Part shown: positions 18,469-58,893 of the stretch, piece by piece | Numbering within the stretch: position 1 is the stretch's first letter | How the letters are laid out: each line of letters begins with the position of its first letter | NCBI GenBank assembly: GCA_036406615.1 | Contig: DASXAQ010000020.1 | Coordinates: forward strand, 16,608 to 80,607 | Source: Actinomycetota bacterium | GTDB taxonomy: Bacteria; Actinomycetota; UBA4738 | Length of the DNA: 64,000 bases | Direction of reading: 5' to 3' | The notes under the pieces: generated by a model | Seen by the model: only the letters and a program-made list of their open reading frames with translations | The model's database searches: none | Told to the model about the DNA's origin: nothing | Made by a program: the position numbers and the translations under genes

Positions 18469-18545
18469 TGGTCGGGACGGCGGGATTTGAACCCGCGACC
18501 TCAGCGTCCCGAACGCTGCGCGCTACCAAGCTGCGCCACGTCCCG
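18469..18545 (-). tRNA. tRNA-Pro (anticodon CGG)
   Basis: Reverse complement CGGGACGTGGCGCAGCTTGGTAGCGCGCAGCGTTCGGGACGCTGAGGTCGCGGGTTCAAATCCCGCCGTCCCGACCA folds as a cloverleaf. 7-bp acceptor stem, anticodon loop TTCGGGA, T-loop GGTTCAAATCC, encoded CCA. Confidence 0.9.
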
Positions 18546-23485: not shown

Positions 23486-23581
23486 CGGCGATCAGGCTAT
23501 CCAGGGAGTTGGCCGGAAGATGGATGAAAGCTTAGCGTCCGTCAGCGCCTTGCGGGCGGTGGGCGGGCGGATTCGCGACCG

Positions 23582-44327: not shown

Positions 44328-45263
44328 TCAGGCGCGGTTCTGCACGAACTGCCAGCCGAACCGGCCCTTGATGCACAGGTGGCCGCTGGTGACGTCGTGG
44401 TCCATCGGCGAGCCGACCTTGACGATGTCACCGTCCTGCACGTGCAGCTCCAGCGTGCAGCCCACGCCGCAGTACGGGCAGATCGTGTCGGTCACCGTCT
44501 GCTTCGACTCGTCCCACGTTCCGTCCTCGCGCATCTCGTGCTCGGACCGGAACATCAGCGCGCCGGTGGGGCACACGCCGATGCAGTTACCGCAGTAGAC
44601 GCACGCCGAGTCCGGCAGCGGCACCGCGTACTCGGTCGAGATGCGAGCGTCGAACCCGCGACCGGCCACCGCGATCGCGAACGTGTTCTGCGCATCGACG
44701 CCGCACGCCTCGACGCACTTGTAGCAGAGGATGCACCGCGAGTAGTCGCGCACGTACAGGTCGTTGTCGACCTTGACCGGCTGGTGCACGGTCTCGGCGG
44801 CGGCGCCGTCCGGGGCGTGGTGGTGGCCGGGCCCCCGCGCGTCGCGCTCGCCGCCGGCCGCGGGCTCGGCCGGCCGGCCGTAGCGCCCCGCGTCGGCCGC
44901 GTACTCGCCGATCCACCGCCGGACGTCGTCGCCCGCCAGCGACAGGTCAACCGACGAGGCCAGAAACTCCAGCACCATCCGTCGGCTGTGCTTCACCCGC
45001 TCCGAGTCCGTCGAAACCTTCATACCCGCTTCGGCGGGCCGCGAGCACGCCGGTACGAGCGCGCGCGACCCCTCGACCTCGACGACGCAGACCCGGCAGA
45101 CGTTCACCGGCGTCAGGTTCTCGAGGTAGCACAGCGTCGGCGTGTCGATCCCCTGGGTCCGGCACGCCTCCAGGATCGTCGTGCCCTCCGGAACGCGAAC
45201 GCTTCGCCCGTCGATCTCCACGTCCACCAGGCGCTTCGGCGGCGCCATCATCACGCGGCTCAT
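44328..45263 (-). CDS. formate dehydrogenase alpha subunit, N-terminal Fe-S module only (NuoG/HylA-like, includes the Mo-type 4Fe-4S domain)
   Basis: Start MSRVMMAPPKRLVDVEIDGRSV (ATGA overlap with the upstream stop). 2Fe-2S region (CYLENLTPVNVCRVCVVEV), ferredoxin motifs CILCYKCVEAC and CVYCGNCIGVCP, then CPYCGVGCTLE...GHLCIKGRF. Ends ...GWQFVQNRA. Confidence 0.85.
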   Translation of the reverse strand: MSRVMMAPPKRLVDVEIDGRSVRVPEGTTILEACRTQGIDTPTLCYLENLTPVNVCRVCVVEVEGSRALVPACSRPAEAGMKVSTDSERVKHSRRMVLEFLASSVDLSLAGDDVRRWIGEYAADAGRYGRPAEPAAGGERDARGPGHHHAPDGAAAETVHQPVKVDNDLYVRDYSRCILCYKCVEACGVDAQNTFAIAVAGRGFDARISTEYAVPLPDSACVYCGNCIGVCPTGALMFRSEHEMREDGTWDESKQTVTDTICPYCGVGCTLELHVQDGDIVKVGSPMDHDVTSGHLCIKGRFGWQFVQNRA

Positions 45264-47140
45264 CGCGATCCCGCCCCGTCGAACAGGCGCAGCTTGGCGA
45301 TCGCCGACTGCACGGCGCCGGCGGCCGTCTGGCCCAGGCCGCAGATCGACGCGTCGCGCATCACCTGGGCGATCTCGTCGATGAGCGCCAGGTCGGCGCC
45401 GGTGCCGCCGTTCGATCGTCCATCGGCGAGGCGCCGAAGCGCCTCCTCCTGCCGGACGGTGCCGACGCGGCACGGGACGCACTGCCCGCAGGATTCGTCG
45501 CGGAAGAACGCCGCGATCCGCAGCACGATGTCGACCAGGTCGACCGTGTCGTCGAACGCCATCACGACGCCGGATCCCAGCGAGACGCCGGCCGCGCGCG
45601 CGTCCTCGAACGTCAGTCGCAGGTCCAGGTCGTCCGGCGTGACGAACGCACCGGCCGCGCCGCCCAGCAGGATGGCCTGCAGCGCACGGCCTTCGCGCAC
45701 ACCCCCCGCCTGGTCCAGCAGCTCGCGAAGCGTCGTGCCGAACTCGATCTCGTACAGGCCCGGCCGCTCGACGCATCCGCTCAGGCAGAACAGGCGCGTG
45801 CCGGTGGAGTCCGGCGTGCCGATCCGCGCGAACGCCGGTCCCCCGATGCGAAGGATCTCCAGCACGTTCAGCAGCGTCTCGACGTTGTTGATGCCGGTCG
45901 GCTTGCCGAACACGCCGTGCGTGACGGGGAACGGCGGCTTGTTGCGAGGCTCGGCGCGCTTGCCCTCGATCGAGTTGAAGAGCGCCGTCTCCTCGCCGGC
46001 GATGTACGCGCCGGCGCCGCGGCGAAGCTCGATGTCGAACGCGAACCCCTCGCCCATGACGTTGGCACCCAGGAACCCGCGCGCGCGGCATTGCTCGATC
46101 GCGTTTCGCAGCCGCTCGTGCGCCAGGGGATACTCGCCGCGGATGTAGAGGTAGCCGGCCTCGCTGCCGGTGGCGTAGCCGGCGATCGTGAGCGCCTCGA
46201 CGACCGCGAAGGGGTCTGCCTCCATCACGACCCGGTCCTTGAACGTGCCGGGCTCGGACTCGTCCGCGTTGCACACGAAGAAGTGGGGACGGACCGGTTG
46301 CTTCGCGACCGCCTCCCACTTCACGCCGGTGGGGAACGCGGCGCCACCGCGCCCGAGCAGGTTGGCGTCCTTCACCTCGCGGATGACGCCCTCGGGCCCG
46401 AGCGCCACGGCGGTCCGCAGCGCTTCGTACCCGCCGTGCGACCGGTAGGAATCGAGCGAGGTCGGATCCGCCTTGCCGACCCGCGTGAGGAGTGGGCCTG
46501 CCGAGCCGCCGCGCTGCATCGAGGCGGAAAGTCGCGTCTCACTGCGCCAATAGGGAGCGTCGTCTTCCGATGGGTCGCCGAGCCCGGCCTCTCGCACGAG
46601 GTCCGCGATCCGGGCGACGCCCACAGAGACGTCATGGCCGGCAAGCGACCCGTTCTGCACGAGCGCGGCCGGCGCCGCTTCGCACATGCCGAGACACGGG
46701 CTGCGGAGCCACGTCGCGCCGTCCCTGTCGGATCCGGGCGGACCGAACTCGCGTTCCAGGCTGGCGCACAGATCTTCGGCGCCGTTCACCCGGCAGGCGA
46801 TGTCGTCGCACACGTGCACGACGGTCTTCGGCCGCGGCTCGGTCGAGAACAGCGCGTAGAAGCTCGCCACGCCGTACGCCTCGGCCGGCGGGATCGTCAG
46901 GCGCTGCGCGACGTAGCCGAGCGCGCCCTCGCTGATCCATCCCACACGCGACTGGACCGCGTGCAGGACCGGGAGCAGCAGGTGGCGCTGCTCCCGCGCG
47001 GCCCGGCCGCCGCGGGCGATGTGTCCGTCGAGTTCGGTGCGCGAGCCGCCGACCCAACCGCTCTCGGGCTGCCCCAGGATGCCGTCGACGGCCGCGCGCT
47101 CCTCGTCGGTCGCCGACGCGGGCAGGAGGTGCAGGTCCAT
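45260..47140 (-). CDS. fused NuoE-NuoF-like (FdsG/FdsB) NAD(H)/FMN/Fe-S subunit
   Basis: 626 aa. NuoE-like 2Fe-2S part (VCDDIAC...CLGMC). NuoF part GRGGAAFPTGVKW, CNADESEPGTFKDR, ESCGQCVPCRVGT. Confidence 0.9.
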   Translation of the reverse strand: MDLHLLPASATDEERAAVDGILGQPESGWVGGSRTELDGHIARGGRAAREQRHLLLPVLHAVQSRVGWISEGALGYVAQRLTIPPAEAYGVASFYALFSTEPRPKTVVHVCDDIACRVNGAEDLCASLEREFGPPGSDRDGATWLRSPCLGMCEAAPAALVQNGSLAGHDVSVGVARIADLVREAGLGDPSEDDAPYWRSETRLSASMQRGGSAGPLLTRVGKADPTSLDSYRSHGGYEALRTAVALGPEGVIREVKDANLLGRGGAAFPTGVKWEAVAKQPVRPHFFVCNADESEPGTFKDRVVMEADPFAVVEALTIAGYATGSEAGYLYIRGEYPLAHERLRNAIEQCRARGFLGANVMGEGFAFDIELRRGAGAYIAGEETALFNSIEGKRAEPRNKPPFPVTHGVFGKPTGINNVETLLNVLEILRIGGPAFARIGTPDSTGTRLFCLSGCVERPGLYEIEFGTTLRELLDQAGGVREGRALQAILLGGAAGAFVTPDDLDLRLTFEDARAAGVSLGSGVVMAFDDTVDLVDIVLRIAAFFRDESCGQCVPCRVGTVRQEEALRRLADGRSNGGTGADLALIDEIAQVMRDASICGLGQTAAGAVQSAIAKLRLFDGAGSR

Positions 47141-47144
47141 CCGA

Positions 47145-49106
47145 CTAGTCGGCCCCCGCGCCGGCGGGCACCGTCGCGTCCTCGGCCGGCTGCCCGTTGG
47201 CGGCCGGCGCGTCGAGCTTGTCGATGCGAATGGCCGTCGCCTTGAACTCCGCCGTGCCCGATTTCGGGTCGGTCGCGTCGATCGTGAGCAGGTTCGTGGC
47301 GACGTCGTCGGGGAAGTGCAGCGTCATGAACGCCAGGCCGGGCCGCAGTCCCGTGTCGATCCGCACCGGCGCGACGACCGTGCCGCGCCGCGAGGTCACG
47401 CGCACCCGCTCGCCGGGCTGCAGGCCGTGGCGTTCGGCGTCCTCGGGCGACACGTCCAGGGTCTCGCCGCGGCGCATCGGCGAGGAGAACCCACCGCTCT
47501 GCACGCCCGTGTTGTACGAATCGAGCCGGCGCCCCGTCGTGAGCCGGATCGGGTACTCGTCGGTGAGCTCGTCGACCGGGGGGTCGTGGTGCACGACGCT
47601 GATCGGGGCCAGCGGGCCCTGTTCGTCTCCGTCGAGCCACAGCCGGCCATGCAGGAACTGCGCGCCCGGGTCGTTTTCATCGAAGCACGGCCACTGGATG
47701 CCGTTCAGCTCCTCCAGCCGCGCGTAGCTCATCCCGGCGTGCATCGGCGAGAGCGACCGGCATTCGTCCCACACCTGTTCCGCGGTTGGGTCGCCCCAGT
47801 CGTGGCCCAGGCGGCGGGCGATCTCGCCCATGATCCAGATGTCGTCGCGGGCGTTGCCCGGCGGGTCCATCGCCTTGCGCACGCGCTGGACCCGGCGCTC
47901 GCTGGACGTCACGGTGCCCTCCGCCTCGCACCACGTCGCAGATGCCGGCAGGACGACGTCGGCGATCTCCGCCGTCTTGGTCAGGAAGATATCCTGCACG
48001 ACCAGGTGCTCCAGGCCCAGGAGCAGCTTCATCGCGCGGTGCTGGTCGGCCTCCGACTGCGCGGGGTTCTCGCCGACCACGTAGGCGGTCGTGAGCTCGC
48101 CACGCTCCATGGCCTCGAACATCTCCGACAGGTGCCACCCGTAATCGGCACGAATGGGTGTGCCCCAGGCCTTTTCGAACTTGGCCCGGGCTTCGGCGTC
48201 CTTCTCGACGTCCTGGAACCCGGGGAGCTTGTTCGGGATCGCCCCCATGTCCCCGCCGCCCTGAACGTTGTTCTGGCCGCGCAGCGGCTGCAGCCCGCTG
48301 CCGTAGCGGCCGATGTGGCCCGTCAGCAGGGACAGGTTGATCAGCGCGAGCACGTTGTCGACCGCGTTGTGATGCTCGGTGATGCCGAGCGTCCAGCACA
48401 GCTGCGCGCGGTCCGCCCTGGCGAACGCGTGCGCCAGCTCCCGGATGGCCTCGGCCGGCACCCCGGTCGTGCGCTCCGCGTACTCCAGCGTGTAGGGCTG
48501 CACGGCATCGCGGTACTCGTCGAAGCCGGTGGTCGCGTGGTCCACGAACGCCTGGTTCACCAGGCCCGCAGCGATGATCTCGCGCCCGACCGCATTGGCC
48601 AGGGCGACGTCCGAGCCCACGTCCAGGCCGAGCCACAGGTCGGCCCACTGCGCCGACGACGTCCGGCGCGGATCGACCGAGTACAGGCGGGCGCCGTTTC
48701 GGATCCCCTTCAGGACGTGGTGGAAGAAGATCGGGTGCGTCTCGCGCGCGTTCGAGCCCCACAGGACGATCACGTCCGTGCGCTCGACCTCCTCATATGA
48801 GCTGGTGCCGCCCCCGGCACCGAAGACCGTCGCCAGACCGACGACGCTCGGCGCGTGTCAAGTGCGGTTGCAGCTGTCGATGTTGTTGCAGCCGATGACC
48901 GAGCGCGTGAACTTCTGCGCAACGAAGTTCATCTCGTTCGTGGCCTTGGAGCAGCTGAACATGCCGAACGAGAGCGGCCCCTGCTTGTCGACCGCCGTCC
49001 GGAAGCCAGCCGCCGCCCGATCGAGGGCCTCGTCCCACGTTGCCCGGCGGAGCACGCCGGCGTCGCGGACCAGGGGCTCGGTCAGTCGGGTGTAGCGCTG
49101 CGACAT
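47145..49106 (-). CDS. fdhA: formate dehydrogenase catalytic (Mo/W-bisPGD) module with in-frame TGA selenocysteine; lacks its own N-terminal Fe-S domain
   Basis: Track ORFs 48858-49106 and 47145-48773 are in one frame. Read-through gives ...NIDSCNRT-U-HAPSVVGLATVFGAGGGTSSYEEVERTDVIVLWGSNARETHP, the canonical FDH Sec motif. Starts MSQRYTRLTEPLVRD. Confidence 0.85.
48820..48851 (-). promoter_or_regulatory. candidate bacterial SECIS hairpin
   Basis: In the mRNA, 12 nt after UGA: GUCGUC-GGUCU-GGCGAC (48845-48829) above a CCGA/UCGG lower stem. The apical loop contains GU. A second hairpin GGUGCC-GGGGGC-GGCACC lies at 48821-48804. Confidence 0.45.
48858..48860 (-). other. selenocysteine (UGA) codon of fdhA
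   Basis: TGA at the position of the catalytic Sec/Cys in the C-x-R-x-U-H motif. selA and selB are in the same window. Confidence 0.8.
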
Positions 49107-49240: not shown

Positions 49241-49918
49241 ATGGGCTATTGGAGAACCGGCATCGGGCGGTTCTTGACGGTCAGCCCGGGCAAACGCTTC
49301 ATCGAAGGGGAGCCGACCACGGCCTCACGAAGAACGAAATCGGACAAGCAGGGCACGAGCCGCCGATCCTCCGCGATCGCGTGGCTGCTCGCGGCCGCGG
49401 TCCTCTCGGGCCCGGCCGTGCTCGCTGCGCCGGCGGCGAACGCGGCGCCTCCCACCATCAACTGCAGCACCGATCCCGGCAACGGCCAGTGCAACAAGCT
49501 GTCGGCGACGTTCACGTGCGTCTGGAACAACCGCAACGGCACCTACTCGGCCGTCTTCGGCTACAAGAACTCGTCCTCGCACCCGCTGGTGGCCACCGTG
49601 GGGCTGGAGAACATGTTTCTGCCCGCTCCGAACGGCCGTGGGCAGCCGACGACGTTTCCCGCCGGCTCCACCGTGACGAACGCCGTCGTCGTCACGTGGA
49701 ACGGGTCGGCGTTGACGTGGGTCCTGCCCGGCGGCACCGCCACCGGCGGGTTCTGGGCCACTCCGTGCTCGAGCCCGCCCGTGCCGATGGTCGCCGGCGC
49801 GGCGCCGGCGCTCCCGTTCCTGCTGCTGGCCGGCGCGAGCCTGTGGTGGCTCCGCCGCCGCGGCCGGCTCGCATGGGTGCTCGCGGCCGTTCGCGGGTCG
49901 ACGGGGGGCGCCGGGTGA
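49241..49918 (+). CDS. small secreted Cys-containing protein with C-terminal TM helix + Arg cluster (candidate sorting substrate)
   Basis: Signal-like SRRSSAIAWLLAAAVLSGPAVLAAPAANA. About 130-aa domain with 4 Cys. Tail PPVPMVAGAAPALPFLLLAGASLWWLRRRGR. Start uncertain (ATG 49241 or TTG 49273). Confidence 0.65.
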   Translation: MGYWRTGIGRFLTVSPGKRFIEGEPTTASRRTKSDKQGTSRRSSAIAWLLAAAVLSGPAVLAAPAANAAPPTINCSTDPGNGQCNKLSATFTCVWNNRNGTYSAVFGYKNSSSHPLVATVGLENMFLPAPNGRGQPTTFPAGSTVTNAVVVTWNGSALTWVLPGGTATGGFWATPCSSPPVPMVAGAAPALPFLLLAGASLWWLRRRGRLAWVLAAVRGSTGGAG

Positions 49919-50682
49919 ACGTGCTGGCGGTCGGTGCGCATCCCGACGACATCGAGCTCGGCTGCGCCGGCACCTTGGCGCGGCACGTGTGGGCCGGGGA
50001 CACCGTGACGATGCTGGTGATGACCACGGGCGAGCGCGGCCCCCAGGACTCGGTCCCCCGGGTGGACGAACAGGTCGCCGCTGCGCGCCTGATCGGCGCG
50101 AACCTGATCTGGGGCGGGTTCTCGGACGGCGCCGTGCCCACCGGCGGGGACACGGTCGCGTTCATCGACGAGGTCGTGCGCCTCACCAGGGCCGAGATCC
50201 TCTACACGCACGCGCCGAAGGACAGTCACCAGGACCACGTCACGACGGCGCTGTGCTCGCTGGCCGCGGCACGCCGGCTCCCGCGCGTGCTCTGCTACCA
50301 GTCGCCGTCCACGACGTCGTTCGACCCGAACCTGTTCGTCGACATCGACGAGACGTTCGAGCTGAAGCGCCGGTCGCTGAGCGCGCACCAGTCGCAGGTC
50401 CTGCGCTGCGAGATGGTCGACCTGGAGGCCGTCGGGGCGGCCGCGCGGTACTGGGGCCACCGCTCGCGGGTGCGCCACGCGGAGGGGTTCGAGACGCCGC
50501 GCTTCGTCTGGCAGATCGGCGCGGATGCCGACGTCTCACGGACGGCAGGCCGGCCGGTGGAAACGGCCGACCCGCAGCTCGAGCCGGCCGCCGTGGAGGA
50601 GTGGGCACACCTGCCGCAGACGCGCACGCCCGCGCCTCGCTCCCGGGACGAGGCGGCGCGGCTGATGGCGGCCTCGGAGTAG
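49915..50682 (+). CDS. PIG-L/LmbE family deacetylase
   Basis: GTGA overlap with the upstream stop. VGAHPDDIELGCAGT and HQDH motifs. Confidence 0.85.
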   Translation: MNVLAVGAHPDDIELGCAGTLARHVWAGDTVTMLVMTTGERGPQDSVPRVDEQVAAARLIGANLIWGGFSDGAVPTGGDTVAFIDEVVRLTRAEILYTHAPKDSHQDHVTTALCSLAAARRLPRVLCYQSPSTTSFDPNLFVDIDETFELKRRSLSAHQSQVLRCEMVDLEAVGAAARYWGHRSRVRHAEGFETPRFVWQIGADADVSRTAGRPVETADPQLEPAAVEEWAHLPQTRTPAPRSRDEAARLMAASE

Positions 50683-50686
50683 CGCG

Positions 50687-52063
50687 GTGAACGAACCGGC
50701 CCCGCACCCCCGAAGCGTGTCCGCCCCCCGCCTGCCTCGCGGGGCGCCGTGGTCGCTGCTGTACCTGCTCGCGCTGGAGATCGTCGCGGTGAGCCTGCTC
50801 GGCGTGGACCGCGCCGTCACCGCGGCGGCGATCGCGATGAACGTCGTGTTCATCGTGTACCTGTTCCGCCACCTTGCGTTCGCGGCGACGGCTGCCCGCT
50901 ATGCATCGCGGGACCTGCGGCGCCTGCCCGACGTGGATGTCGCGTTCGTGCCGACCGTCACGGTGATGGTCGCCTGCCACAACGAGGCCGTGGTGGCGCG
51001 GAACCTGGTTGCCGGCCTCCGCGGGCTGGACTACCCGGGCGACCGCCTGGACGTGATCCTGGTGGACGACGGGTCGCAGGACGGGACGGGCCCGATGCTG
51101 GAGCACCTGACCGCGACCGACCCACACATCCGCGTGCTGCACCGCCCGCCCGGCGAGGGCGGCGGGAAGTCCGGCGCGCTGAATGCGGCGCTCGAGCGGG
51201 CCACCGGGGAGATCATCGTGGTCTTCGACGCCGACCACGTGCCCTCGCCGGACGTCGTGCGCCGCCTGGTTCGCCATTTCGCGGACGCCCGCGTCTCGGC
51301 CGCCCAGGGGCGCTGCGTCATCACGAACTGGGGCGAGACGCCGCTGGCGCGCGCCATCGCCATCGACTACTTCTCCGGGTACCTGGTCAACGAGTACGGG
51401 CGTCAGGCACTGTTCGAGCTTCCCGCCTACGGCGGCGCCAACTGCGCGGTGCGGGCCTCGACCCTGCGGCGACTGGGAGGCTGGAACCCCGCCACCGTCA
51501 CGGAGGACACCGATCTCACGATGCGGGTGCTGTTGTCCGGTGAGCGCGTTCGCTACGACGTCACCGCCGTGGACACCGAGCAGGCCCCGACGACCATCCG
51601 CTGGTTCATGCGGCAGCGGTACCGCTGGGCGCGCGGCCATCAGCAGGTGTGGCGCGACTACCGGCGGGCCGTGCTCGCGACGCCGCACCTCGGGACGATG
51701 GCGCGGATCGAGACGCTCATGTTCCTGCTGGTCTTCCACGTGCCCGTCGTGTGTGCGGCGACGTTCGTGCTGCTGGCGATGCGCCTGGCCGGCATCGGGC
51801 ATCCGATCACGTTGTTCGAATTGCTGCCGCTGACCGCGCTGTTGTTCGCCGGCCCGTTCTGCGAGCTGGCGGTGGGGCTGGTCGTCGGACGCGCGCCGCG
51901 CTGGACCGCATGGTCCCTGGCGCTGATGCTGCCGGTGTTCATCGTGTCGATCACGGTCACGACGAAGGCATGGATCGACGGCCTCCTCGGCGTCCCGTAC
52001 GCGTGGGTGAAGACGCGCCGGTCGGGCGCTGAGCCGTCCACGCCGGAGCGGGTGGCCGCGTGA
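50687..52063 (+). CDS. processive family 2 glycosyltransferase (polysaccharide synthase)
   Basis: 458 aa. TM helices at both ends. VACHNE, ILVDDGSQDGT, VVFDADH, QRYRWARG (QxxRW). Confidence 0.9.
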   Translation: MNEPAPHPRSVSAPRLPRGAPWSLLYLLALEIVAVSLLGVDRAVTAAAIAMNVVFIVYLFRHLAFAATAARYASRDLRRLPDVDVAFVPTVTVMVACHNEAVVARNLVAGLRGLDYPGDRLDVILVDDGSQDGTGPMLEHLTATDPHIRVLHRPPGEGGGKSGALNAALERATGEIIVVFDADHVPSPDVVRRLVRHFADARVSAAQGRCVITNWGETPLARAIAIDYFSGYLVNEYGRQALFELPAYGGANCAVRASTLRRLGGWNPATVTEDTDLTMRVLLSGERVRYDVTAVDTEQAPTTIRWFMRQRYRWARGHQQVWRDYRRAVLATPHLGTMARIETLMFLLVFHVPVVCAATFVLLAMRLAGIGHPITLFELLPLTALLFAGPFCELAVGLVVGRAPRWTAWSLALMLPVFIVSITVTTKAWIDGLLGVPYAWVKTRRSGAEPSTPERVAA

Positions 52064-52629
52064 GGAGTCCGCGCGTCCGGGTCGTGGTCGTGCTGGTCGC
52101 CTGCGTGGTGGCCGCCATGTCGGGCTTCTTCCTGCTGGTCGACCCGATCCGCCGTCTGGAGATCGCCGCCGCGGTGCTGCTCGCGCGCCCCTTCGGCGGG
52201 CGCGTCTCCGCCGTGGGGGGCGACCTGATCCAGGGCCTGCCGGCCGCGGCGCTTCCCTTTCGCGCCACGGTCACCCCGTTCTGCTCCTCGTTGATCCCGA
52301 TCCTGGCCCTCGGATCGATCTCGATGTTCATCCTGGCCGGCTCGATCGCCCGGCGCGCCGCGGCGTTCGCGATCGCGGCGGCAACGATCCTGTGCTGCAA
52401 CGTCATCCGAATCGCCGCGTCGGTGCTGGTCGGCCTGCGCGCGGGCCCGGCGGGGCTCGCCCTGTTTCACGACTGGGTCGGGACCGGCTTCGCCCTCGCC
52501 TACACGCTCGGCGGCTTCATGCTGATGCTCTACGTGCTGCTGCCGAAGGTCGGCCGCATGCCGGGCGCGTGGCCGGGCGTCCCGGCCGCCGACGCGGCGC
52601 CCGGATCGCCCCGAGGGGGCGGCCGGTGA
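52060..52629 (+). CDS. miniature exosortase/archaeosortase-like membrane protein
   Basis: 189 aa, about 5 TM helices. GDLIQGLPAAALPFRATVTPFCSSL (Cys), CCNVIRIAASV (NxxR), LFHDWVGTG (His), in the order and spacing of the exosortase core. GTGA overlap. Confidence 0.6.
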   Translation: MRSPRVRVVVVLVACVVAAMSGFFLLVDPIRRLEIAAAVLLARPFGGRVSAVGGDLIQGLPAAALPFRATVTPFCSSLIPILALGSISMFILAGSIARRAAAFAIAAATILCCNVIRIAASVLVGLRAGPAGLALFHDWVGTGFALAYTLGGFMLMLYVLLPKVGRMPGAWPGVPAADAAPGSPRGGGR

Positions 52630-53975
52630 GCGCGCCGGCGGCGTTCCTGTTCGCGGCGAACCCGGCCGGCGAGAGCTGGCAGGCCGGCCTGTTCTTCGCG
52701 CTCGCCGGCGCTGCCGTCGTGGTGGCCGCGGTGGTGTGGCGCCTTCGCGCCGACCGGCGGCTGCTTCGCGAGGCGACGGCGAGGCTTCGCGACCCGAACC
52801 CCGCCGCGCGCGTGGAGGCGGTGGACGCCGCGGTGGACCTCGGGCTGTTTCGCACGGGGGGCCTGCTGGTCCGGTTCGCCGCGCGAGAGCGGGACCCGGC
52901 CGTGCTCGACGCGCTGGCCGAGGCCGTGGCGGCGCGGCAGTGGGAGCCGGCCGCCACCCAGGACGTGGTTCGCCTTCGCCGATGGGCGCGGGACCACGCG
53001 GAGGACCGGCGGGCGGCCGCAGCCGGGCCCTCGCAGCGACGTCGGACCGCGCGCGTGCTGATCACCGGCGCCGGCGGGCCGGCCGGCGTGGCCGTGATCC
53101 GAAACCTCGTCCGGCGCGGCGTCCACGTCGTGGCCGTCGACGCCGACGAGCTCGCGGTGGGGTTCGGCCTGGCGTCCGAGGGCTACGTCGTCCCGACCGC
53201 CACCGAGCCCGACTACCTCTCGCGGATCCTCGAGGTCGCGGCCGCGACGCGGGTCGACGCCCTGCTGTGCACGGTGGCCGAGGAGTACCCGGCACTTCGC
53301 GCCCACGCTCTGGACGCGGCGGGCATCCGGTCGATGCTCCCGTCGCCGGAGTCCGTTCGCGTGTGCCTGGACAAGTGGGCGTTCGCGCACGCGATGGAGG
53401 AGGCCGGCCTGCCGGTGCCGGCGACGCGACTGCGCGACCACGTCGACATCCCCAAGCCGTGGATCGTCAAGCCTCGCTTCGGACGCGGGTCGCGAGACGT
53501 GCACGTCGCGCGCACGCTGACCGATCTCCGCCGCGCCTTGCGGTGGACGCCGGACCCCATCGTCCAGGCGCTGGTCGAGGGCCGCGAGTTCACCGTCGAC
53601 GCGCTGGTGGGCCGCGACGGCGCCGTCGCCGGCATGTCGCCCCGCTGGCGCCTGGAGACGAAGGCCGGCATCTCGACGAAGGGACTCACCTTCTCCGATC
53701 CGAAGGTCGTCCGCACGGTCGAGCGCGTGCTCGTCACCGTCGGCCTGGTCGGGCCCGCGAACGTGCAGGGGTTCGTGACGAAGGACGGCGACGTCGTCGT
53801 GCTGGAGGTCAACCCGCGCTTCTCGGGCGGCCTGCCACTGACCCTGCACGCCGGCGCCGACCTGGTCGGCGAGTACGTGCGCGCGATCCTGGGCAAGCCG
53901 ATCCGCCCCGAGCGGCTGGTGGCCCGGCCCGGGGTCGCCATGTCGCGCTACTTCGACGAGGTGTTCGCGGCGTGA
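52626..53975 (+). CDS. ATP-grasp enzyme with N-terminal TM helix and HEAT-like repeat
   Basis: GTGA overlap. TM helix LFFALAGAAVVVAAVVW, then RDPNPAARVEAVDAAVDLG...ERDPAVLDALAEAV, then an ATP-grasp core (KPWIVKPRFGRGSRDV, LEVNPRFSGG). Confidence 0.8.
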   Translation: MSAPAAFLFAANPAGESWQAGLFFALAGAAVVVAAVVWRLRADRRLLREATARLRDPNPAARVEAVDAAVDLGLFRTGGLLVRFAARERDPAVLDALAEAVAARQWEPAATQDVVRLRRWARDHAEDRRAAAAGPSQRRRTARVLITGAGGPAGVAVIRNLVRRGVHVVAVDADELAVGFGLASEGYVVPTATEPDYLSRILEVAAATRVDALLCTVAEEYPALRAHALDAAGIRSMLPSPESVRVCLDKWAFAHAMEEAGLPVPATRLRDHVDIPKPWIVKPRFGRGSRDVHVARTLTDLRRALRWTPDPIVQALVEGREFTVDALVGRDGAVAGMSPRWRLETKAGISTKGLTFSDPKVVRTVERVLVTVGLVGPANVQGFVTKDGDVVVLEVNPRFSGGLPLTLHAGADLVGEYVRAILGKPIRPERLVARPGVAMSRYFDEVFAA

Positions 53976-55138
53976 GGATCACGGTGCCGGTCGGGACCCG
54001 TCCGGAGATCATCAAGCTGGCGGGCGTGGTGGGCGCGCTGCGGGCCGCGGGTCACACCGTTCGATGCATCGCCACCGGCCAGCACGACGATCCCCGGATG
54101 GCCGGGGACATCTTCGACGAGCTCGGGTGCGCCCCTGACGCGGTCTGGTCGCTCGAGGGCGACGAGGGCAGGCGCGTCGCGACCCTGCTGGGCGACGCGT
54201 TCGATGAAATGGCAACCCACGCGCCAGACGCGGTCCTGGTCCTGGGCGACACCTACACGGCCCCGCTGCTGGCACTGGCGGCCCGGCGCCACGGCGTCGG
54301 CGTCGTGCACCTGGAGGCCGGGCTCCGTTCGTTCAACGAACGGTCGATGGAGGAGACGAACCGCCGCCTGATGGCCGTCCTGGCCACGCTGCACCTGGCG
54401 CCGAGCGAGCTGGCCGCGTCGTTCCTGCGCGCCGAAGGTGTCGCGCCGGATCGCATCCGGGTGGTGGGCAACCCGATCGTGGACGCGATGGTTCGAAGCG
54501 GCGTCGAGCGCGTTCCGGTGGAGCGCCGGTCGGGGTCGCTGCTCACCGCCCACCGCGCCACCAACGTCGACGACCCCGCCAGGCTTCGGGAGATCGTGCG
54601 GCTGGCGGCGTCCCTCGGAGCCGAAGCCGGCCCCGTCACGTTCCCGTTGCACCCGCGCACGCGCTTGCGCCTGCACCGGGCCGGGTTGCTCGATCGCCTC
54701 GCGAGCGTTCCCGGCGTCGCCCTCTGCGATCCGCTCGGCTACGGCGACATGCTCGCGCGGGTCTCGGCGAGCCGCCTCGTGGTCACGGACTCGGGCGGGT
54801 TGCAGGAGGAGGCGTCGTACTTCGGCATCCCGTGCGTGGTCCTGCGGTCGACCACGCCGCGATGGGAGCTGGTGCAGGCGGGCGCCGCGGAGCTCGCCGG
54901 CATGGACGCGGACCGCGCGCTGCGCGCCGTTCGCCGGCTGAGCGCTTCCGCGGAACAGCGACGGATCGACGGGCTCGCATGCCCGTACGGCGACGGCCAC
55001 ACCGCCGCCCGCGTCGTGGATGCGCTGGCGGATCCGCTCGTCGCCGGACTGATCCGGCCCGCCGAGCCGGCGCTGGGCGCGGCGCCGTTCGTGGCCTGGA
55101 CGGTCGACGAGCAGCTGCCGGCCGAGCTCGCATCGTGA
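53972..55138 (+). CDS. wecB: UDP-N-acetylglucosamine 2-epimerase (non-hydrolysing)
   Basis: GTGA overlap. VGTRPEIIKLAGV, LGDTYTA, HLEAGLRSFN, VTDSGGLQEEA. Confidence 0.9.
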   Translation: MRITVPVGTRPEIIKLAGVVGALRAAGHTVRCIATGQHDDPRMAGDIFDELGCAPDAVWSLEGDEGRRVATLLGDAFDEMATHAPDAVLVLGDTYTAPLLALAARRHGVGVVHLEAGLRSFNERSMEETNRRLMAVLATLHLAPSELAASFLRAEGVAPDRIRVVGNPIVDAMVRSGVERVPVERRSGSLLTAHRATNVDDPARLREIVRLAASLGAEAGPVTFPLHPRTRLRLHRAGLLDRLASVPGVALCDPLGYGDMLARVSASRLVVTDSGGLQEEASYFGIPCVVLRSTTPRWELVQAGAAELAGMDADRALRAVRRLSASAEQRRIDGLACPYGDGHTAARVVDALADPLVAGLIRPAEPALGAAPFVAWTVDEQLPAELAS

Positions 55139-55869
55139 CGTCGGCGCGCCGCGTCGAGGCGGTCACCGTCGACCTGGACGACACGCTCTACGAGCAACGC
55201 CACTTCCTGGTCGGCGCCTGGGCCGCGGTCGCGGACGCCGGCGCCGCGCGCGGGCTCGCGCGGGGGCCGTTGCACCGGGCCCTGCTGGACGTGGCTTCGG
55301 AGGGATCCGACCGCGGGCGAATCGTGGACCGGGCGCTCGAGCGCATCGGCGCGGAGCCGGCGCACGCGGCGCCGCTGGTCGACGCCTTTCGACGGTTCGA
55401 ACCGGACCTGCTGGCCGTGTATCCGGGCGCGCGGGCGGCGCTGGCCGCGCTGCGAGCGCGCGTGCCCGTTGCATGCATCACCGACGGCGACCCCGGGATC
55501 CAACGGGCCAAGCTGCGCGCGCTCGCCCTGGACGACGCGTTCGACGCGCTCGTGATCTCCGACGAGATCGGGCGCGACGTTCGAAAGCCGCACCCCCTGC
55601 CCTTCCTGCGCGCGGTGCAAGCGCTGGGCGTGGCGGTGGAGCGAACGGTCCACGTGGGGGACCGGCCGGCCAAGGACGTTGCCGGGGCGGCGGCGGCGGG
55701 GCTGCTGGCCGTCCGCGTGACGACCGGCGAGTACGGGGACGATCCCATTCCGCCGGGATGCCCGGCTCCGCTGGCGACGGTGGCAAGCGTCCGGGAGGCG
55801 TTCGAGCTGATCGCGACGCTGGCGACGACCGCGGTCGACCCGTCGTCGCATGCCGTCGCCCGGCGCTGA
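55135..55869 (+). CDS. HAD-family hydrolase
   Basis: GTGA overlap. VTVDLDDTLY (DxDxT), ITDG, KPHP, VGDRPAKDV. Confidence 0.8.
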   Translation: MTSARRVEAVTVDLDDTLYEQRHFLVGAWAAVADAGAARGLARGPLHRALLDVASEGSDRGRIVDRALERIGAEPAHAAPLVDAFRRFEPDLLAVYPGARAALAALRARVPVACITDGDPGIQRAKLRALALDDAFDALVISDEIGRDVRKPHPLPFLRAVQALGVAVERTVHVGDRPAKDVAGAAAAGLLAVRVTTGEYGDDPIPPGCPAPLATVASVREAFELIATLATTAVDPSSHAVARR

Positions 55870-55882
55870 CGCGCGCTTCGGC

Positions 55883-56767
55883 TCAGTCCGTCAGGTCGAT
55901 CCGCTCGGGGCGCGTGTACACGTTGAACGACGGCCCCCGGAGGAACCCGACCACGGTCATGCCCAGCCGTTCGGCGGTCTCGACCGCCAGGCTGGACGGC
56001 GCCGACACGGCGGCCACGATCGGGATGCCCGCCATCGCGGCCTTCTGCACGATCTCGAAGCTCACCCGGCCGGACACGTGCAGGACCCGTTCGGACAGCG
56101 GCAGCGACCCGTCGAGCAGCGCCCACCCCACCAGCTTGTCCACGGCGTTGTGCCGTCCCACGTCCTCGCGCAGCGCCAGCATCCGGCCGTCCACGTCGAA
56201 CAGCCCGGCCGCGTGCAGGCCGCCCGTCTCCTCGAACACGCGCTGTGCCTGCCGCAGCGCGTCGGGAAGACCAATGAGGGTCGAGCGCGCGATCGCCGGG
56301 CCCGGCGGCAGCGACGAGCAGGCCACCTCCACCTGGTCGATCGACGCCTTGCCGCACACGCCGCAGCTCGAGGTCGCATAGAAGTTGCGCGTGACGTCAC
56401 CCTGATCGAACGCGCGGGACGTTCGAACGGTGACGACGTTGTACCGCTGCTCCGGCACGTCCGTGTCGCAGTAGCGCACCGACTCGATCTCGTCGCGGTC
56501 GTGGATCAACCCCTCCGTCCACAGGAAGCCGGCGGCCAGCTCGAAGTCGTGGCCGGGCGTGCGCATCGTGACGGCGACGCTCACCGCGTCCTGCCCGGGG
56601 CCGCGGACCTGGATCTCCATTGGTTCCTCGGTGGCCAGCCGGTCCGGGCGCTCCGCGGGCAGGCCGTCGCGCACCGCCGTCACCCGCGCGGCGCTCACGC
56701 TTCGTCGCGGCTCGGGCGAGTCGCCCGCGCCGCCGGTGTGGATCGAAGAACGGGCCATCGATCCCAT
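55883..56767 (-). CDS. fdhD: formate dehydrogenase accessory sulfurtransferase FdhD
   Basis: MRTPGHDFELAAGFLWTEGLI, SSCGVCGKASID, GRHNAVDKLVG. Start ATG 56767 or 56758. Confidence 0.85.
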   Translation of the reverse strand: MGSMARSSIHTGGAGDSPEPRRSVSAARVTAVRDGLPAERPDRLATEEPMEIQVRGPGQDAVSVAVTMRTPGHDFELAAGFLWTEGLIHDRDEIESVRYCDTDVPEQRYNVVTVRTSRAFDQGDVTRNFYATSSCGVCGKASIDQVEVACSSLPPGPAIARSTLIGLPDALRQAQRVFEETGGLHAAGLFDVDGRMLALREDVGRHNAVDKLVGWALLDGSLPLSERVLHVSGRVSFEIVQKAAMAGIPIVAAVSAPSSLAVETAERLGMTVVGFLRGPSFNVYTRPERIDLTD

Positions 56768-56792
56768 TATCGGCGCGAGTATCGTGGGCCGC

Positions 56793-57374
56793 ATGGACGC
56801 GTCGCTCACGGGGGTCCTGCTGGCCGGCGGCCGGAGCGCACGCATGGGCGTGGACAAGGCGGCGATGGCGTTCGACGGCGAGCCCCTGGCGGTCCGGGTC
56901 GCGCGGCGGCTGGGGGAGTGCTGCGATCGCGTGCTCGTCGCGTCCGGCGACGGACGGCGCCTGGCCTGGCTGGGCCTCGAGCAGGTGGCCGACCCCATCC
57001 CGGACGCGGGACCGCTGGCGGGCATCGTCGCCGGGCTCGAACACGCGCCGGGGCCGGCCGCGGCGGTCGCGGCCGTGGACATGCCGTTCGCGAGCCCCGG
57101 CGTGCTCCGCCTGCTGGCCTCGCTGCGCGGCGACGCGGACGCCGTGGTGCCGGTCACCGACGACGGCCTCGAGCCGCTGCACGCCGTCTACGCGACGTCG
57201 GCCGCGGCCGCGTTGCGGTCGGAGCTCGAGTCGGGGGTTCGCGCCGTCCGCGAGGCGATCGAGGGGCTTCGCGTTCGCCTCGTGGAACGCCTCGAGTGGT
57301 CGCCGGCCGATCCCTCCGGGGCGTTTGCCCGCAACCTGAACCGGCCGGCGGACCTACCCCGCGGATCCGGCTGA
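56793..57374 (+). CDS. mobA: molybdenum cofactor guanylyltransferase MobA
   Basis: MDASLTGVLLAGGRSARMGVDKA, AVDMPF. TATCGT lies 7 nt upstream of the ATG. Confidence 0.85.
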   Translation: MDASLTGVLLAGGRSARMGVDKAAMAFDGEPLAVRVARRLGECCDRVLVASGDGRRLAWLGLEQVADPIPDAGPLAGIVAGLEHAPGPAAAVAAVDMPFASPGVLRLLASLRGDADAVVPVTDDGLEPLHAVYATSAAAALRSELESGVRAVREAIEGLRVRLVERLEWSPADPSGAFARNLNRPADLPRGSG

Positions 57375-57380
57375 ACCGCG

Positions 57381-57797
57381 TCAGCCGGCCATCGCGTCGG
57401 CCAGCCGGCGCGCGAGCGTGGCCAGCATCGACACGGCGATCGACGGCTCCCGTTCCAGCAACGTCGCGAAGTCTCCGCGCCCGACCGCAAGACAGCGAAC
57501 GGGGGTGACCGCCTGCACGCGCGCGGTGCGGGCGCCGTCGGTCAGCAGCGCCAACTCGCCGAAGAAGTCCCCGGGGCCGCCGGCGATGGGTTCGCGACCG
57601 GGCGTCGTCACCGAGACCTCGCCGTCCTCCACGACGAACAGGCCGCTGCCGGCCATCCCCGGCTGGATCAGCACCGAGCCGGCGGGCGCGTCGAACTCGG
57701 TGGCGGCGTCCAGGATGCGCCGAAGCGAGTCCTCGGGAACGCCGTGGAACAGCGGGATCTCGGACAGGCGCTTCAGCCGGTCGGCGTCGTCGGGCAT
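57381..57797 (-). CDS. stand-alone cyclic-nucleotide-binding domain protein
   Basis: 138 aa. IPLFHGVPEDSL..., GDFFGELALL, RTARVQA. Confidence 0.8.
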   Translation of the reverse strand: MPDDADRLKRLSEIPLFHGVPEDSLRRILDAATEFDAPAGSVLIQPGMAGSGLFVVEDGEVSVTTPGREPIAGGPGDFFGELALLTDGARTARVQAVTPVRCLAVGRGDFATLLEREPSIAVSMLATLARRLADAMAG

Positions 57798-57848
57798 GCG
57801 GGCTCACTCATACCACAGCGGTCCCACGGCAAGCTCGGGACTCCGTCG

Positions 57849-58115
57849 TCAGCCGGCATCGTCGCCGCCGGGGGGTTCCGAGTCGCTGAGCAATTCCCGC
57901 GCCGCGTCCTGCGCGGCCCGGATCGCGCCGGCCCGGTCGTCGCCGGACCGACCCGCCAGGACGCCGGCCAGGAACGCGGACAGCGGCGCGAGCCGCCGAT
58001 CGTCCGTTCCGCGCGCGATGTCGCGCGCGAGGCCGAGCAGGGCGTCGGCCTGCTCGCGCGTCACCGGATCCTGTCCCAGCCTGGCCGCGAACGCGTCGAT
58101 CCACTCGTTCACCAC
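57849..58115 (-). CDS. small DUF6457-like protein (commonly next to mobA in actinobacteria)
   Basis: GTG at 58115 after GGAGG. VVNEWIDAFAARLGQDP...LLGLARDIARG...APLSAFLAGV. Family name from memory. Confidence 0.6.
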   Translation of the reverse strand: MVNEWIDAFAARLGQDPVTREQADALLGLARDIARGTDDRRLAPLSAFLAGVLAGRSGDDRAGAIRAAQDAARELLSDSEPPGGDDAG

Positions 58116-58268
58116 TGCACCTCCACCCCTTTTGATGAATCGCCTCACGCGAGGGTAGCCTTGCCGCGCGGAGCCGTGCGGCTCCGACGCGAACCGATCG
58201 CGGGGAGGGAGCGACACGACGCGCGACGCGCAGCGGCCGAACGCGGGCTCCCTGGGTATGGTGGGTTC

Positions 58269-58886: not shown

Positions 58887-58893
58887 GCCGGGC

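What the first reader, a model, noticed from the sequence alone, without database searches (positions are those of the whole stretch)
52060..52629. Miniature (189 aa) protein carrying the Cys / N-x-x-R / His exosortase signature
The sequence shows, in order, ...GGDLIQGLPAAALPFRATVTPFC-SSL..., about 40 aa later ...LCCNVIRIAAS..., and about 20 aa later ...LFHDWVGTG.... Each motif sits at the end of a hydrophobic helix. This matches the three near-invariant motifs described for the exosortase/archaeosortase core, including the 'g..i.l..g.....v...CS' lead-in. Characterised members are much larger (about 280-500 aa, 8 or more TM helices). This would be close to a minimal catalytic core.
Basis: partly seen in the sequence, partly recalled or inferred. 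Interest (0 to 1): 0.7.

Follow-up and report, generated by a model that had tools for sequence, protein, structure and literature searches.

The report
Mini exosortase with its own cargo operon
The 189-residue membrane protein is a genuine, very small member of the exosortase family of protein-sorting enzymes, and it sits in a seven-gene operon, conserved across Actinomycetota, that also encodes its likely cargo protein and sugar-polymer machinery that no curated family yet describes.

Summary
ORF 52060-52629 (+) is coding. It passes the curated NCBIfam exosortase/archaeosortase signature (35.7 bits, cut-off 23). In 106 homologues Cys75 is kept in 103, Asn114 in 105, and Arg117 and His137 in all 106.

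It is not uniquely small. NCBIfam already holds 155-168-position models for exosortases P, R, S and X. This protein and its relatives reach none of those subfamily cut-offs.

The surroundings add the main finding. The gene lies in a translationally coupled operon (49241-55869):
- a secreted cargo protein with a C-terminal signal (motif, membrane helix, Arg cluster)
- a PIG-L deacetylase
- a processive GT2 synthase
- the mini-exosortase
- a membrane-tethered HEAT/ATP-grasp ligase
- a UDP-GlcNAc 2-epimerase
- a HAD phosphatase

Of 80 related Actinomycetota loci, 66 hold the five-gene core and 65 hold it collinear; 12 of the other 14 are cut by contig ends. Fifty-three loci also carry an adjacent protein with the same kind of C-terminal signal, on unrelated passenger domains. 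Some relatives fuse the exosortase to the HEAT/ATP-grasp protein.

Best reading: a dedicated exosortase system that cleaves, and probably re-anchors, its operon-encoded cargo, coupled to glycan synthesis. The chemistry is inferred, not shown. I rate it a new variant of a known kind, with moderate interest.

The parts
49241..49918 (+). Candidate cargo gene. It encodes a secreted protein of about 215-225 aa: a signal peptide (...AAPAANA/AP), a beta-rich passenger domain of about 100 aa with two conserved Cys, and a C-terminal sorting signal. The start is ATG 49241 (JGI call, 225 aa) or TTG 49274.
   Evidence: A profile HMM built from 19 upstream-neighbour proteins of related loci hits this ORF at E = 7e-35. 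Sequence. An independent JGI gene call gives 225 aa. No Pfam or NCBIfam family matches. Alignment A4 has C82, N113, Q124, G131, W149 and C165 invariant.
49766..49915 (+). C-terminal tripartite sorting signal of the cargo: C-SSPPVPMVAG, then the helix AAPALPFLLLAGASLWWL, then RRRGR and a 16-aa tail.
   Evidence: The same layout appears in 62 tails from 54 sources. In 58 of 62 a P-x(0-4)-G motif abuts the helix.
49915..50682 (+). PIG-L family de-N-acetylase (MshB/BshB-like). It has no signal peptide. Its GTG start overlaps the cargo stop codon (GTGA).
   Evidence: PF02585, 72.6 bits. Weak hits to BshB1 and MshB. Junction shown.
50687..52063 (+). Membrane-embedded processive family-2 glycosyltransferase (synthase type), with 2 N-terminal and 3 C-terminal hydrophobic helices.
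   Evidence: PF00535 and PF13641. The best NCBIfam hit is PgaC_IcaA, 126 bits, below its cut-off of 422. Motifs DDGS127, DAD181, TED272 and QRYRW310 are present, and QxxRW occurs in 77/80 loci.
52060..52629 (+). Miniature (189 aa, four-helix) exosortase-family protein, the finding itself. Catalytic candidates are C75, R117 and H137, plus N114 and the invariant E34.
52626..53975 (+). Membrane-tethered cytoplasmic protein: an N-terminal TM helix (GLFFALAGAAVVVAAVVW), a HEAT-like region (DPAVLDALAEAVAARQWEP) and an ATP-grasp ligase domain. Its start overlaps the exosortase stop codon (GTGA).
   Evidence: PF02655, PF15632 and PF21360. PRK12767-type 'carbamoyl phosphate synthase-like protein', 186 bits, below its cut-off of 390. 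A weak HEAT_2 hit in an orthologue. Relatives fuse this protein to the exosortase.
53972..55138 (+). Non-hydrolysing UDP-N-acetylglucosamine 2-epimerase (WecB).
   Evidence: TIGR00236, 248.5 bits against a cut-off of 210. PF02350.
55135..55869 (+). HAD-superfamily phosphatase, the last gene of the operon.
   Evidence: PF00702 and PF13419. TIGR02253 subfamily hit below cut-off, and generic HAD-IA family models above cut-off. GTGA junction with wecB.

Best explanation
The 189-aa protein is a dedicated, miniature exosortase-family enzyme: a Cys/Arg/His intramembrane cysteine protease, possibly a transpeptidase. Its four helices place Cys75, Asn114/Arg117 and His137 near the outer face of the cytoplasmic membrane.

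Its substrate is most likely the small secreted protein encoded by the first gene of the same operon (49241-49918). That protein would be exported by Sec and held in the membrane by its C-terminal helix and Arg cluster. The enzyme would then cut it at the Pro/Gly-rich motif that abuts that helix.

The other operon genes are the PIG-L deacetylase, a processive GT2 synthase, WecB, a HAD phosphatase and an ATP-grasp ligase tethered next to the exosortase. They probably make and export an amino-sugar glycan. The cargo is then either attached to that glycan or embedded in it.

Status of each step:
- Shown: family membership, residue conservation, the operon structure and its conservation, the adjacent tripartite cargo, and the fusions.
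- Inferred: cleavage of the cargo by this enzyme and the site of cleavage.
- Speculative: transpeptidation and the nature of the acceptor.
For: 1. Family. TIGR04178 is passed. Of 106 homologues, 105 hit it at E <= 0.001.

2. Catalytic residues. C75 103/106, N114 105/106, R117 106/106, H137 106/106.

3. Structure and topology. The AF2 model is confident (pLDDT 92.8, pTM 0.84) and shows a beta-hairpin leading into the Cys. The charge distribution fits an N-in, C-in protein.

4. Operon. Seven genes, with five of six junctions being GTGA overlaps.

5. Conservation. Of 80 Actinomycetota loci, 66 hold GT2, Xrt, ATP-grasp, WecB and HAD, and 65 hold them collinear. Twelve of the other 14 are truncated contigs.

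6. Cargo.
   - The window and 53 loci carry an adjacent gene ending in motif + TM helix + Arg cluster.
   - Unrelated passenger domains share this tail.
   - Some of those passengers are NCBIfam 'choice-of-anchor P' proteins.
   - The motif abuts the helix without a spacer.
   - These points match Haft's criteria for sorting signals and for dedicated one-to-one systems (bioRxiv 10.1101/2023.06.07.544157).

7. Physical coupling. Natural fusions Xrt-HEAT-ATP-grasp (P0044, P0063, P0105, P0110, P0121, and P0048 with two ATP-grasp domains) and Xrt-HEAT (P0066, P0089) are seen. Two loci show the fusion in a single ORF.

8. Precedent. Small exosortases paired with GT2 enzymes are already known for XrtG and XrtP (PMC12854382).
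Against: - There is no experimental evidence for any member of this subfamily.
- Pfam PF09721 scores below its gathering threshold (20.2 against 25.7).
- No solved exosortase structure exists for comparison. Model coordinates could not be read, so the Cys-His-Arg geometry is unchecked.
- The model's secondary-structure string shows residues 96-160 as one unbroken helix. The turn assumed at G125-G129 therefore rests on charge, hydropathy and fusion logic only.
- The sorting motif is loose (P-x(0-4)-G). The window's cargo has an unusually long tail of 16 aa after the Arg cluster.
- About a third of the loci showed no cargo with my detectors. Several of those loci are truncated.
- The role of a cytoplasmic ATP-grasp next to an enzyme that acts at the outer face is unexplained.
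Confidence: 0.65

Rival explanations
1. It is a release protease only. The enzyme cuts the cargo's C-terminal anchor and frees it into the matrix or medium, with no transfer to a glycan or lipid. The glycan genes only supply the surrounding matrix.
For: Whether exosortases and archaeosortases are one-step transpeptidases is still unsettled even for ArtA (Haft preprint). Nothing in my data shows an acceptor.
Against: The catalytic trio matches that of sortase transpeptidases. The tight coupling and fusion to glycan and ligase enzymes would be unnecessary for simple release.
Confidence: 0.15
2. It is a non-proteolytic membrane subunit that scaffolds or regulates the GT2 synthase and ATP-grasp complex, comparable to the small accessory membrane proteins of other synthases. 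The neighbouring tail-anchored protein is simply membrane-anchored and is never cleaved.
For: It always sits between the GT2 and the ATP-grasp gene and is sometimes fused to the latter. The ATP-grasp domain is cytoplasmic, whereas the putative active site faces outward.
Against: Near-perfect retention of Cys, Asn, Arg and His across sequences that are only 27-55% identical is hard to explain without catalysis. Unrelated passenger domains share the same tail, and some belong to the choice-of-anchor P family. That pattern argues for a recognised signal rather than a plain anchor.
Confidence: 0.1
3. The adjacent proteins are degenerate sortase substrates (LPxxG-like motifs such as LPEEGNG, LPADGNG, VPTGAVGG). 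The mini-exosortase acts on some other, unidentified substrate.
For: Several tails resemble LPXTG in outline and carry a TM helix plus a basic tail, as sortase signals do.
Against: The fourth-position Thr of LPXTG is not kept. It is D, E, A or absent, and the window has PPVPMVAG. The motif abuts the helix with no spacer, which Haft gives as the mark of signals cut by membrane-embedded enzymes and not by sortase. The conserved neighbour is the exosortase. My searches of the loci surfaced no sortase gene, although sortase itself was never used as a query.
Confidence: 0.07

Closest known systems
Exosortase S (NCBIfam NF033767) and exosortase R (NF012138): small exosortase subfamilies
   Same: They are about the same size (models of 155 and 160 positions). 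The alignment to XrtS runs end to end (residues 17-158 against positions 9-153 of 155). Of 106 relatives, 92 hit XrtS and 56 hit XrtR at E <= 0.001.
   Different: The scores are far below the curated cut-offs: 27.5 against 145 for the window protein, and a best family E-value of 9.5e-15. It is therefore a separate subfamily. I found no description of the partners of XrtS or XrtR.
Exosortase G system of Firmicutes (XrtG TIGR03110, Firmicu-CTERM protein, XrtG-associated GT2 TIGR03111)
   Same: It is a Gram-positive organism's small exosortase, with a dedicated C-terminal-signal protein and GT2 glycosyltransferases in one locus (PMC12854382).
   Different: The window protein does not hit TIGR03110 even at E <= 10. 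The GT2 scores 54.5 against 364 for TIGR03111. The sorting motif is different. XrtG loci are not described with PIG-L, ATP-grasp, WecB or HAD partners.
Exosortase P with its associated glycosyltransferase (NF012139, NF053846)
   Same: A small exosortase paired with a membrane GT2.
   Different: The scores are 18.6 against 200 for the exosortase and 78.7 against 520 for the GT2.
XrtA/EpsH with PEP-CTERM proteins (Haft 2006, PMC1569441)
   Same: The same catalytic signature, a tripartite C-terminal signal whose motif abuts the helix, and location in polysaccharide loci.
   Different: XrtA is a large protein with eight or more helices that serves many substrates in Gram-negative bacteria with an outer membrane. 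Here the enzyme has four helices and the system looks one-to-one or one-to-few, in monoderm Actinomycetota.
Archaeosortase ArtA with PGF-CTERM
   Same: Homologous core. It is the only family member with mutagenesis support for the conserved residues, and it shows coupled removal of the C-terminal helix and attachment of an anchor.
   Different: It is archaeal, larger, uses a lipid anchor derived from archaetidylethanolamine, and has many substrates.
Sortase A / LPXTG and eukaryotic GPI transamidase (analogues only, not homologues)
   Same: A cysteine enzyme removes a C-terminal hydrophobic signal and joins the new C-terminus to an amine. PIG-L-type de-N-acetylation creates the free amine in GPI synthesis.
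   Different: The folds are unrelated. The analogy is from general knowledge and is untested here.

Membership tests
Exosortase/archaeosortase family (TIGR04178 signature; Pfam PF09721) | Scores at or above the curated cut-off of the family model | tested here: met
   TIGR04178 scores 35.7 bits against a cut-off of 23, E = 7.8e-9. Of 106 relatives, 105 hit it. Pfam PF09721 alone is below threshold (20.2 against 25.7).
Exosortase/archaeosortase family | Near-invariant Cys, Arg and His (putative catalytic triad) | tested here: met
   C75 103/106, R117 106/106, H137 106/106, and also N114 105/106. The feature is defined in Haft's preprint.
Exosortase/archaeosortase family | Deeply membrane-embedded, with the three residues on the same (outer) side | tested here: inconclusive
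   Hydropathy, the positive-inside rule across 106 sequences and C-terminal fusion to a cytoplasmic ATP-grasp all fit an N-in, C-in, four-helix topology with the residues in the outer leaflet.
Exosortase/archaeosortase family | Co-occurrence with proteins that carry a tripartite C-terminal sorting signal (motif, TM helix, basic cluster). For dedicated systems these are encoded next to the enzyme. | tested here: met
   The window has such a gene at 49241-49918. The tally is 62 tails in 54 sources, on unrelated passenger domains that include choice-of-anchor P proteins.
Exosortase/archaeosortase family | Cleavage of the sorting signal (protease or transpeptidase activity) | not testable with these tools
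   This needs genetics and mass spectrometry.
Exosortase S (NF033767) | Score of at least 145 bits | tested here: not met
   27.5 bits for the window protein. The best E-value among the 106 relatives is 9.5e-15.
Exosortase G system (TIGR03110 / TIGR03111 / Firmicu-CTERM) | Model cut-offs for the enzyme and its associated GT2 | tested here: not met
   There is no TIGR03110 hit for the window protein at E <= 10, and only 16 of 106 relatives hit it weakly. The GT2 scores 54.5 against 363.95.
Exosortase P system (NF012139 / NF053846) | Model cut-offs for the enzyme and its associated GT2 | tested here: not met
   18.6 against 200 for the enzyme and 78.7 against 520 for the GT2.
Processive beta-glycan synthases of GT family 2 (PgaC/IcaA, NodC, CelA type), for the neighbouring GT2 | D, DxD, (T)ED and QxxRW motifs, plus flanking TM helices | tested here: met
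   DDGS127, DAD181, TED272 and QRYRW310, with 2 + 3 hydrophobic helices. QxxRW is found in 77/80 loci. No equivalog cut-off is reached: PgaC_IcaA scores 126 against 422.
Sortase/LPXTG substrates, for the cargo | An LPXTG-type pentapeptide with a spacer before the helix | tested here: not met
   The window tail is PCSSPPVPMVAG followed directly by the helix. Relatives have P-x(0-4)-G abutting the helix, with no conserved Thr.

The most novel reading that the evidence does not exclude
The cassette is a self-contained protein-to-glycan anchoring machine of monoderm Actinomycetota.

- WecB, PIG-L, the HAD phosphatase and the membrane-tethered ATP-grasp would build an amino-sugar unit with a free or aminoacylated amine.
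- The GT2 synthase would polymerise and export it.
- The four-helix exosortase would then transfer the cleaved C-terminus of the cargo onto that amine.

This would be a bacterial counterpart of sortase/lipid II or GPI-transamidase chemistry. It would identify the long-sought acceptor of an exosortase, in the smallest known member of the family.
Probability: 0.15. Interest if true: 0.85.

Novelty: new variant of a known kind. Interest (0 to 1): 0.55.

Why it matters
Exosortases are widespread, yet they remain poorly understood biochemically. No structure has been solved. The acceptor of the presumed transpeptidation is unknown. Mutagenesis evidence exists only for the archaeal enzyme ArtA.

This system offers several practical advantages:
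- The enzyme has about 170-190 residues and four helices.
- It appears to have a single substrate, encoded next to it.
- It has a compact and strongly conserved set of partner enzymes.
- Natural fusions point to a physical complex.
- Several carriers can be cultured, including Geodermatophilus, Modestobacter, Pseudonocardia and Catenulispora.

That makes it a tractable model for asking what exosortases attach their substrates to.

The finding also defines three things that appear in neither Pfam-A nor NCBIfam release 20.0: an exosortase subfamily, a C-terminal sorting signal, and a small cargo protein family currently labelled 'hypothetical'.

Tried and rejected
- **PDB searches for the exosortase.** The sequence search with the family profile gave no hits at E <= 1. 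Foldseek with the high-confidence model gave a best E of 0.9, only generic helical bundles. No structural comparison is possible.
- **Catalytic geometry.** Model coordinates are not exposed to scripts, so it is unchecked.
- **Helix packing from covariance.** Mean-field DCA and APC-corrected mutual information on about 200 sequences (Neff about 170) were dominated by local and invariant-column artefacts and were discarded.
- **Word-indexed homologue search with the window's cargo alone.** It found nothing. A profile of 23 cargo sequences found 17 proteins, all unnamed or 'hypothetical'.
- **Cargo structure.** The model is poor (pLDDT 61), and Foldseek gave only insignificant beta-sandwich matches.
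- **Literature searches.** Searches for XrtS/P/R/X, for exosortase with Actinobacteria or ATP-grasp, for exosortase with the carrier genera, and for exosortase with Bifidobacteria found no description of this system. The 2012 Haft paper on archaeosortases and exosortases was not held.
- **First genome scan.** A 26-sequence alignment worked.
- **Cluster look-up.** It gave no source names for homologues.
- **Promoter and terminator scan.** It was uninformative for this high-GC organism.
- **Rejected reading: a fragment of a larger exosortase.** Homologues are consistently 165-210 aa, the reading frame is intact and the gene is translationally coupled.
- **Rejected reading: the minus-strand ORF 49246-49542 as a gene.** It has no family hit and is the antisense shadow of the cargo gene.
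Full report
**1. The observation**

ORF 52060-52629 (+) exists as described, with a GTG start and 189 aa. Its GC by codon position is 0.72/0.57/0.93, the coding signature of this 72% GC window.

The three motifs are at the stated positions: FC75SS, CCN114VIR117IAAS and LFH137DWVGTG. A JGI gene call on the same DNA starts 24 nt later, giving 181 aa. I prefer GTG 52060. Homologues have a short basic segment before the first helix. GTG 52060 also forms a GTGA overlap with the upstream stop codon, as at four other junctions of the operon.

**2. Family assignment**

NCBIfam TIGR04178, the exosortase/archaeosortase signature, is passed with 35.7 bits against a cut-off of 23 (E = 7.8e-9, residues 71-159). 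Pfam PF09721 is hit below its threshold (20.2 against 25.7). No unrelated family competes.

NCBIfam already contains small exosortase models: XrtS 155 positions, XrtP 159, XrtR 160 and XrtX 168. The protein aligns with XrtS from end to end but scores only 27.5 bits against a cut-off of 145.

An exhaustive phmmer search of 1.84 billion representatives found 205 clusters at E <= 1e-3 and 134 at E <= 1e-10. Nearly all are 165-210 aa. In an alignment of 106 full-length members the counts are:

| Residue | Conserved |
|---|---|
| C75 | 103/106 |
| N114 | 105/106 |
| R117 | 106/106 |
| H137 | 106/106 |
| E34 | 106/106 |

Scanning all 106 against NCBIfam, 105 hit TIGR04178 and none reaches any named subfamily. 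The best is XrtS at E = 9.5e-15. This is therefore a genuine exosortase-family protein in a subfamily that curated libraries do not yet define.

**3. Structure and topology**

AlphaFold2 with the 106-sequence alignment gives a confident model (pLDDT 92.8, pTM 0.84). It has a long first helix (4-45), a beta-hairpin (48-60) and a strand (67-70) leading into Cys75, a helix at 78-90, and helical residues 96-160.

Across the family the net charge by segment is as follows:

| Segment | Net charge |
|---|---|
| N-terminus | +1.7 |
| Loop 96-100 | +2.2 |
| C-tail | +0.9 |
| Region 28-72 | slightly negative |

In several relatives the C-terminus continues directly into a HEAT-like region and an ATP-grasp domain, which must be cytoplasmic. 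Together these support an N-in, C-in, four-helix protein with C75, N114/R117 and H137 in the outer leaflet.

There are caveats. The secondary-structure string shows no break at the presumed turn G125-G129. Coordinates could not be read. Covariance analysis was uninformative. No exosortase is in the PDB by sequence or by fold.

**4. The operon**

The gene is the fourth of seven tightly packed genes on the + strand:

| Coordinates | Product |
|---|---|
| 49241/49274-49918 | small secreted protein (cargo) |
| 49915-50682 | PIG-L de-N-acetylase |
| 50687-52063 | membrane GT2 with DDGS, DAD, TED and QRYRW motifs (processive synthase type; best hit PgaC/IcaA, below cut-off) |
| 52060-52629 | mini-exosortase |
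| 52626-53975 | TM helix + HEAT-like region + ATP-grasp ligase |
| 53972-55138 | WecB UDP-GlcNAc 2-epimerase (above its equivalog cut-off) |
| 55135-55869 | HAD phosphatase |

Five of the six junctions are 4-bp GTGA overlaps.

**5. Conservation of the cassette**

A scan of one genome per species returned 116 confirmed relatives, and 80 loci were kept. All are Actinomycetota: Frankiales and Acidothermaceae, Pseudonocardia, Catenulispora, Geodermatophilus, Modestobacter, Blastococcus, Acidimicrobiia, and Bifidobacteriaceae MAGs. None is more than 56% identical to the window protein.

tblastn with the window's proteins shows GT2, Xrt, HEAT/ATP-grasp, WecB and HAD in 66 of the 80 loci, collinear in 65. 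Twelve of the remaining 14 are cut by contig ends, and two (L065, L076) are variants. PIG-L is present in 50 of those 66. It lies usually upstream, and downstream of HAD in the Geodermatophilaceae.

**6. The likely substrate**

Many loci have, next to the cassette, a gene for a 170-300 aa protein. It has a signal peptide and a C-terminus made of a short Pro/Gly motif, an uncharged hydrophobic stretch of 17-24 residues and an Arg cluster. An HMM of 19 such proteins hits the window ORF ending at 49918 at E = 7e-35, and hits 45 of the 80 loci.

The window protein ends ...TPC-SSPPVPMVAG-AAPALPFLLLAGASLWWL-RRRGR plus 16 aa. Its stop codon overlaps the PIG-L start.

In all I counted 62 such tails in 54 sources. 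Fifty-eight have P-x(0-4)-G abutting the helix, and 57 have a Cys within 22 residues upstream. That Cys is invariant together with a Cys in the first beta-strand (A4), so it is probably a disulfide partner and not part of the signal.

The passenger domains differ between lineages while the tail stays the same:
- The window type has no Pfam or NCBIfam family.
- The Pseudonocardia and Catenulispora type is NCBIfam 'choice-of-anchor P' (119 and 96 bits).
- Others are unrelated to both.

To my knowledge, families named 'choice-of-anchor' are those found with different C-terminal sorting signals in different lineages.

These properties match the criteria Haft lists for sorting signals and for dedicated systems: a tripartite tail at the extreme C-terminus, a motif that abuts the helix, unrelated passengers, and adjacency to the enzyme. 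The searchable database holds 17 relatives of the window-type cargo, all unnamed or 'hypothetical'.

**7. Fusions**

Among the representatives, P0044, P0063, P0105, P0110 and P0121 are Xrt-linker-HEAT-ATP-grasp proteins. P0048 carries two ATP-grasp domains. P0066 and P0089 are Xrt-HEAT. L071 and L074 show the fusion within one ORF.

In the window the ATP-grasp protein instead has its own N-terminal helix. In every architecture the ligase is held at the membrane beside the exosortase, which argues for a physical complex.

**8. Mechanism**

My best reading has confidence about 0.65 for the core claim.
- The cargo is exported and retained by its C-terminal helix.
- The mini-exosortase recognises the Pro/Gly motif at the outer membrane face.
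- It cleaves through a Cys75 acyl-enzyme, assisted by His137 and Arg117.

What receives the cargo is unknown. The partner set suggests a candidate: a nucleotide-sugar epimerase, a de-N-acetylase that would expose an amine, an ATP-dependent amide ligase, a phosphatase and an exporting synthase. The product could be an amino-sugar polymer whose free or aminoacylated amines act as the nucleophile. This is analogous to sortase/lipid II or to GPI transamidase. It is inference from general knowledge, and I rate it at about 0.15.

The rivals are a release-only protease, a non-catalytic synthase subunit, and sortase-type substrates. They are weighed in their own section.

**9. Comparison and novelty**

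The enzyme works like, and is a member of, the exosortase/archaeosortase family. It is not a member of XrtS, XrtR, XrtP, XrtX or XrtG by the curated thresholds. Its GT2 is not one of the XrtG- or XrtP-associated glycosyltransferases. The theme of a small exosortase, a GT2 and a dedicated C-terminal-signal protein is known from the XrtG system of Firmicutes (PMC12854382).

The following features are, as far as these libraries and the searchable literature show, not described:
- the subfamily itself
- its restriction to Actinomycetota
- the P-x-G tail
- the cargo family
- the fixed partnership with PIG-L, WecB, HAD and a membrane-tethered ATP-grasp, including gene fusions

I therefore rate it a new variant of a known kind, with interest about 0.55. 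It is not surprising in principle, but it is an unusually compact and testable system for the open question of what exosortases do chemically.

Noticed in passing
window 47145-49106 (-), in-frame TGA at 48858-48860: This is a formate dehydrogenase alpha-subunit-like molybdopterin oxidoreductase. It is interrupted by a single in-frame TGA within ...IDSCNRT-TGA-HAPSVVGLATVF..., the position of the active-site selenocysteine or cysteine in this enzyme family. It is probably a selenoprotein and not a pseudogene. No tRNA-Sec was found in the window.
   Followed up: partly
window 45260-49106 (-) and 55883-57187 (-): The seven-gene cassette lies between formate dehydrogenase genes (NuoF-like subunit and fdhA) and the accessory gene fdhD, all on the opposite strand. 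In other genomes the cassette has different neighbours, for example ribosomal protein L20/L35 genes in Pseudonocardia. It therefore seems to move as a unit. GC content does not stand out.
   Followed up: partly
window 21098-23491 (-): This is a class A penicillin-binding protein (transglycosylase/transpeptidase, judged from reading the translation). It has a Pro-rich linker and ends in ...AAGMP-LWPALSVLIPAVVLPVW-RRRGRGSR, a second membrane helix plus Arg cluster at the extreme C-terminus. Whether this is a plain anchor or a second substrate-like tail is unknown.
   Followed up: no
loci L006, L012, L014, L016, L023: Two or three tandem paralogues of the cargo gene precede the cassette. They have two distinct tail flavours (C-x-T-K-P-V-P-Q-V-G... 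and ...V-P-A-E-G-N...), which suggests one-to-few and not strictly one-to-one pairing.
   Followed up: partly
loci L038, L043, L048, L050, L070 (upstream of the cassette): Response-regulator-like genes ending in a LuxR-type helix-turn-helix (judged by eye from the ORF translations) sit next to the cargo gene in Pseudonocardia and Catenulispora. They are possible dedicated regulators and are absent from the window.
   Followed up: no
window 52060-52629, residue E34 (52159-52161): A glutamate in the helix that follows the first membrane span is invariant in 106/106 homologues, as strictly conserved as Arg117 and His137. It is not part of the classical Cys/Arg/His description.
   Followed up: no
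window 6733-6998 (+); 18469-18545 (-); 36899-43179 (+); 57744-61924 (+): Ordinary housekeeping features: SRP RNA, tRNA-Pro (CGG), two UvrD/PD-(D/E)XK helicase-nuclease genes, and cytochrome oxidase subunit III plus cytochrome c and b genes.
   Followed up: no
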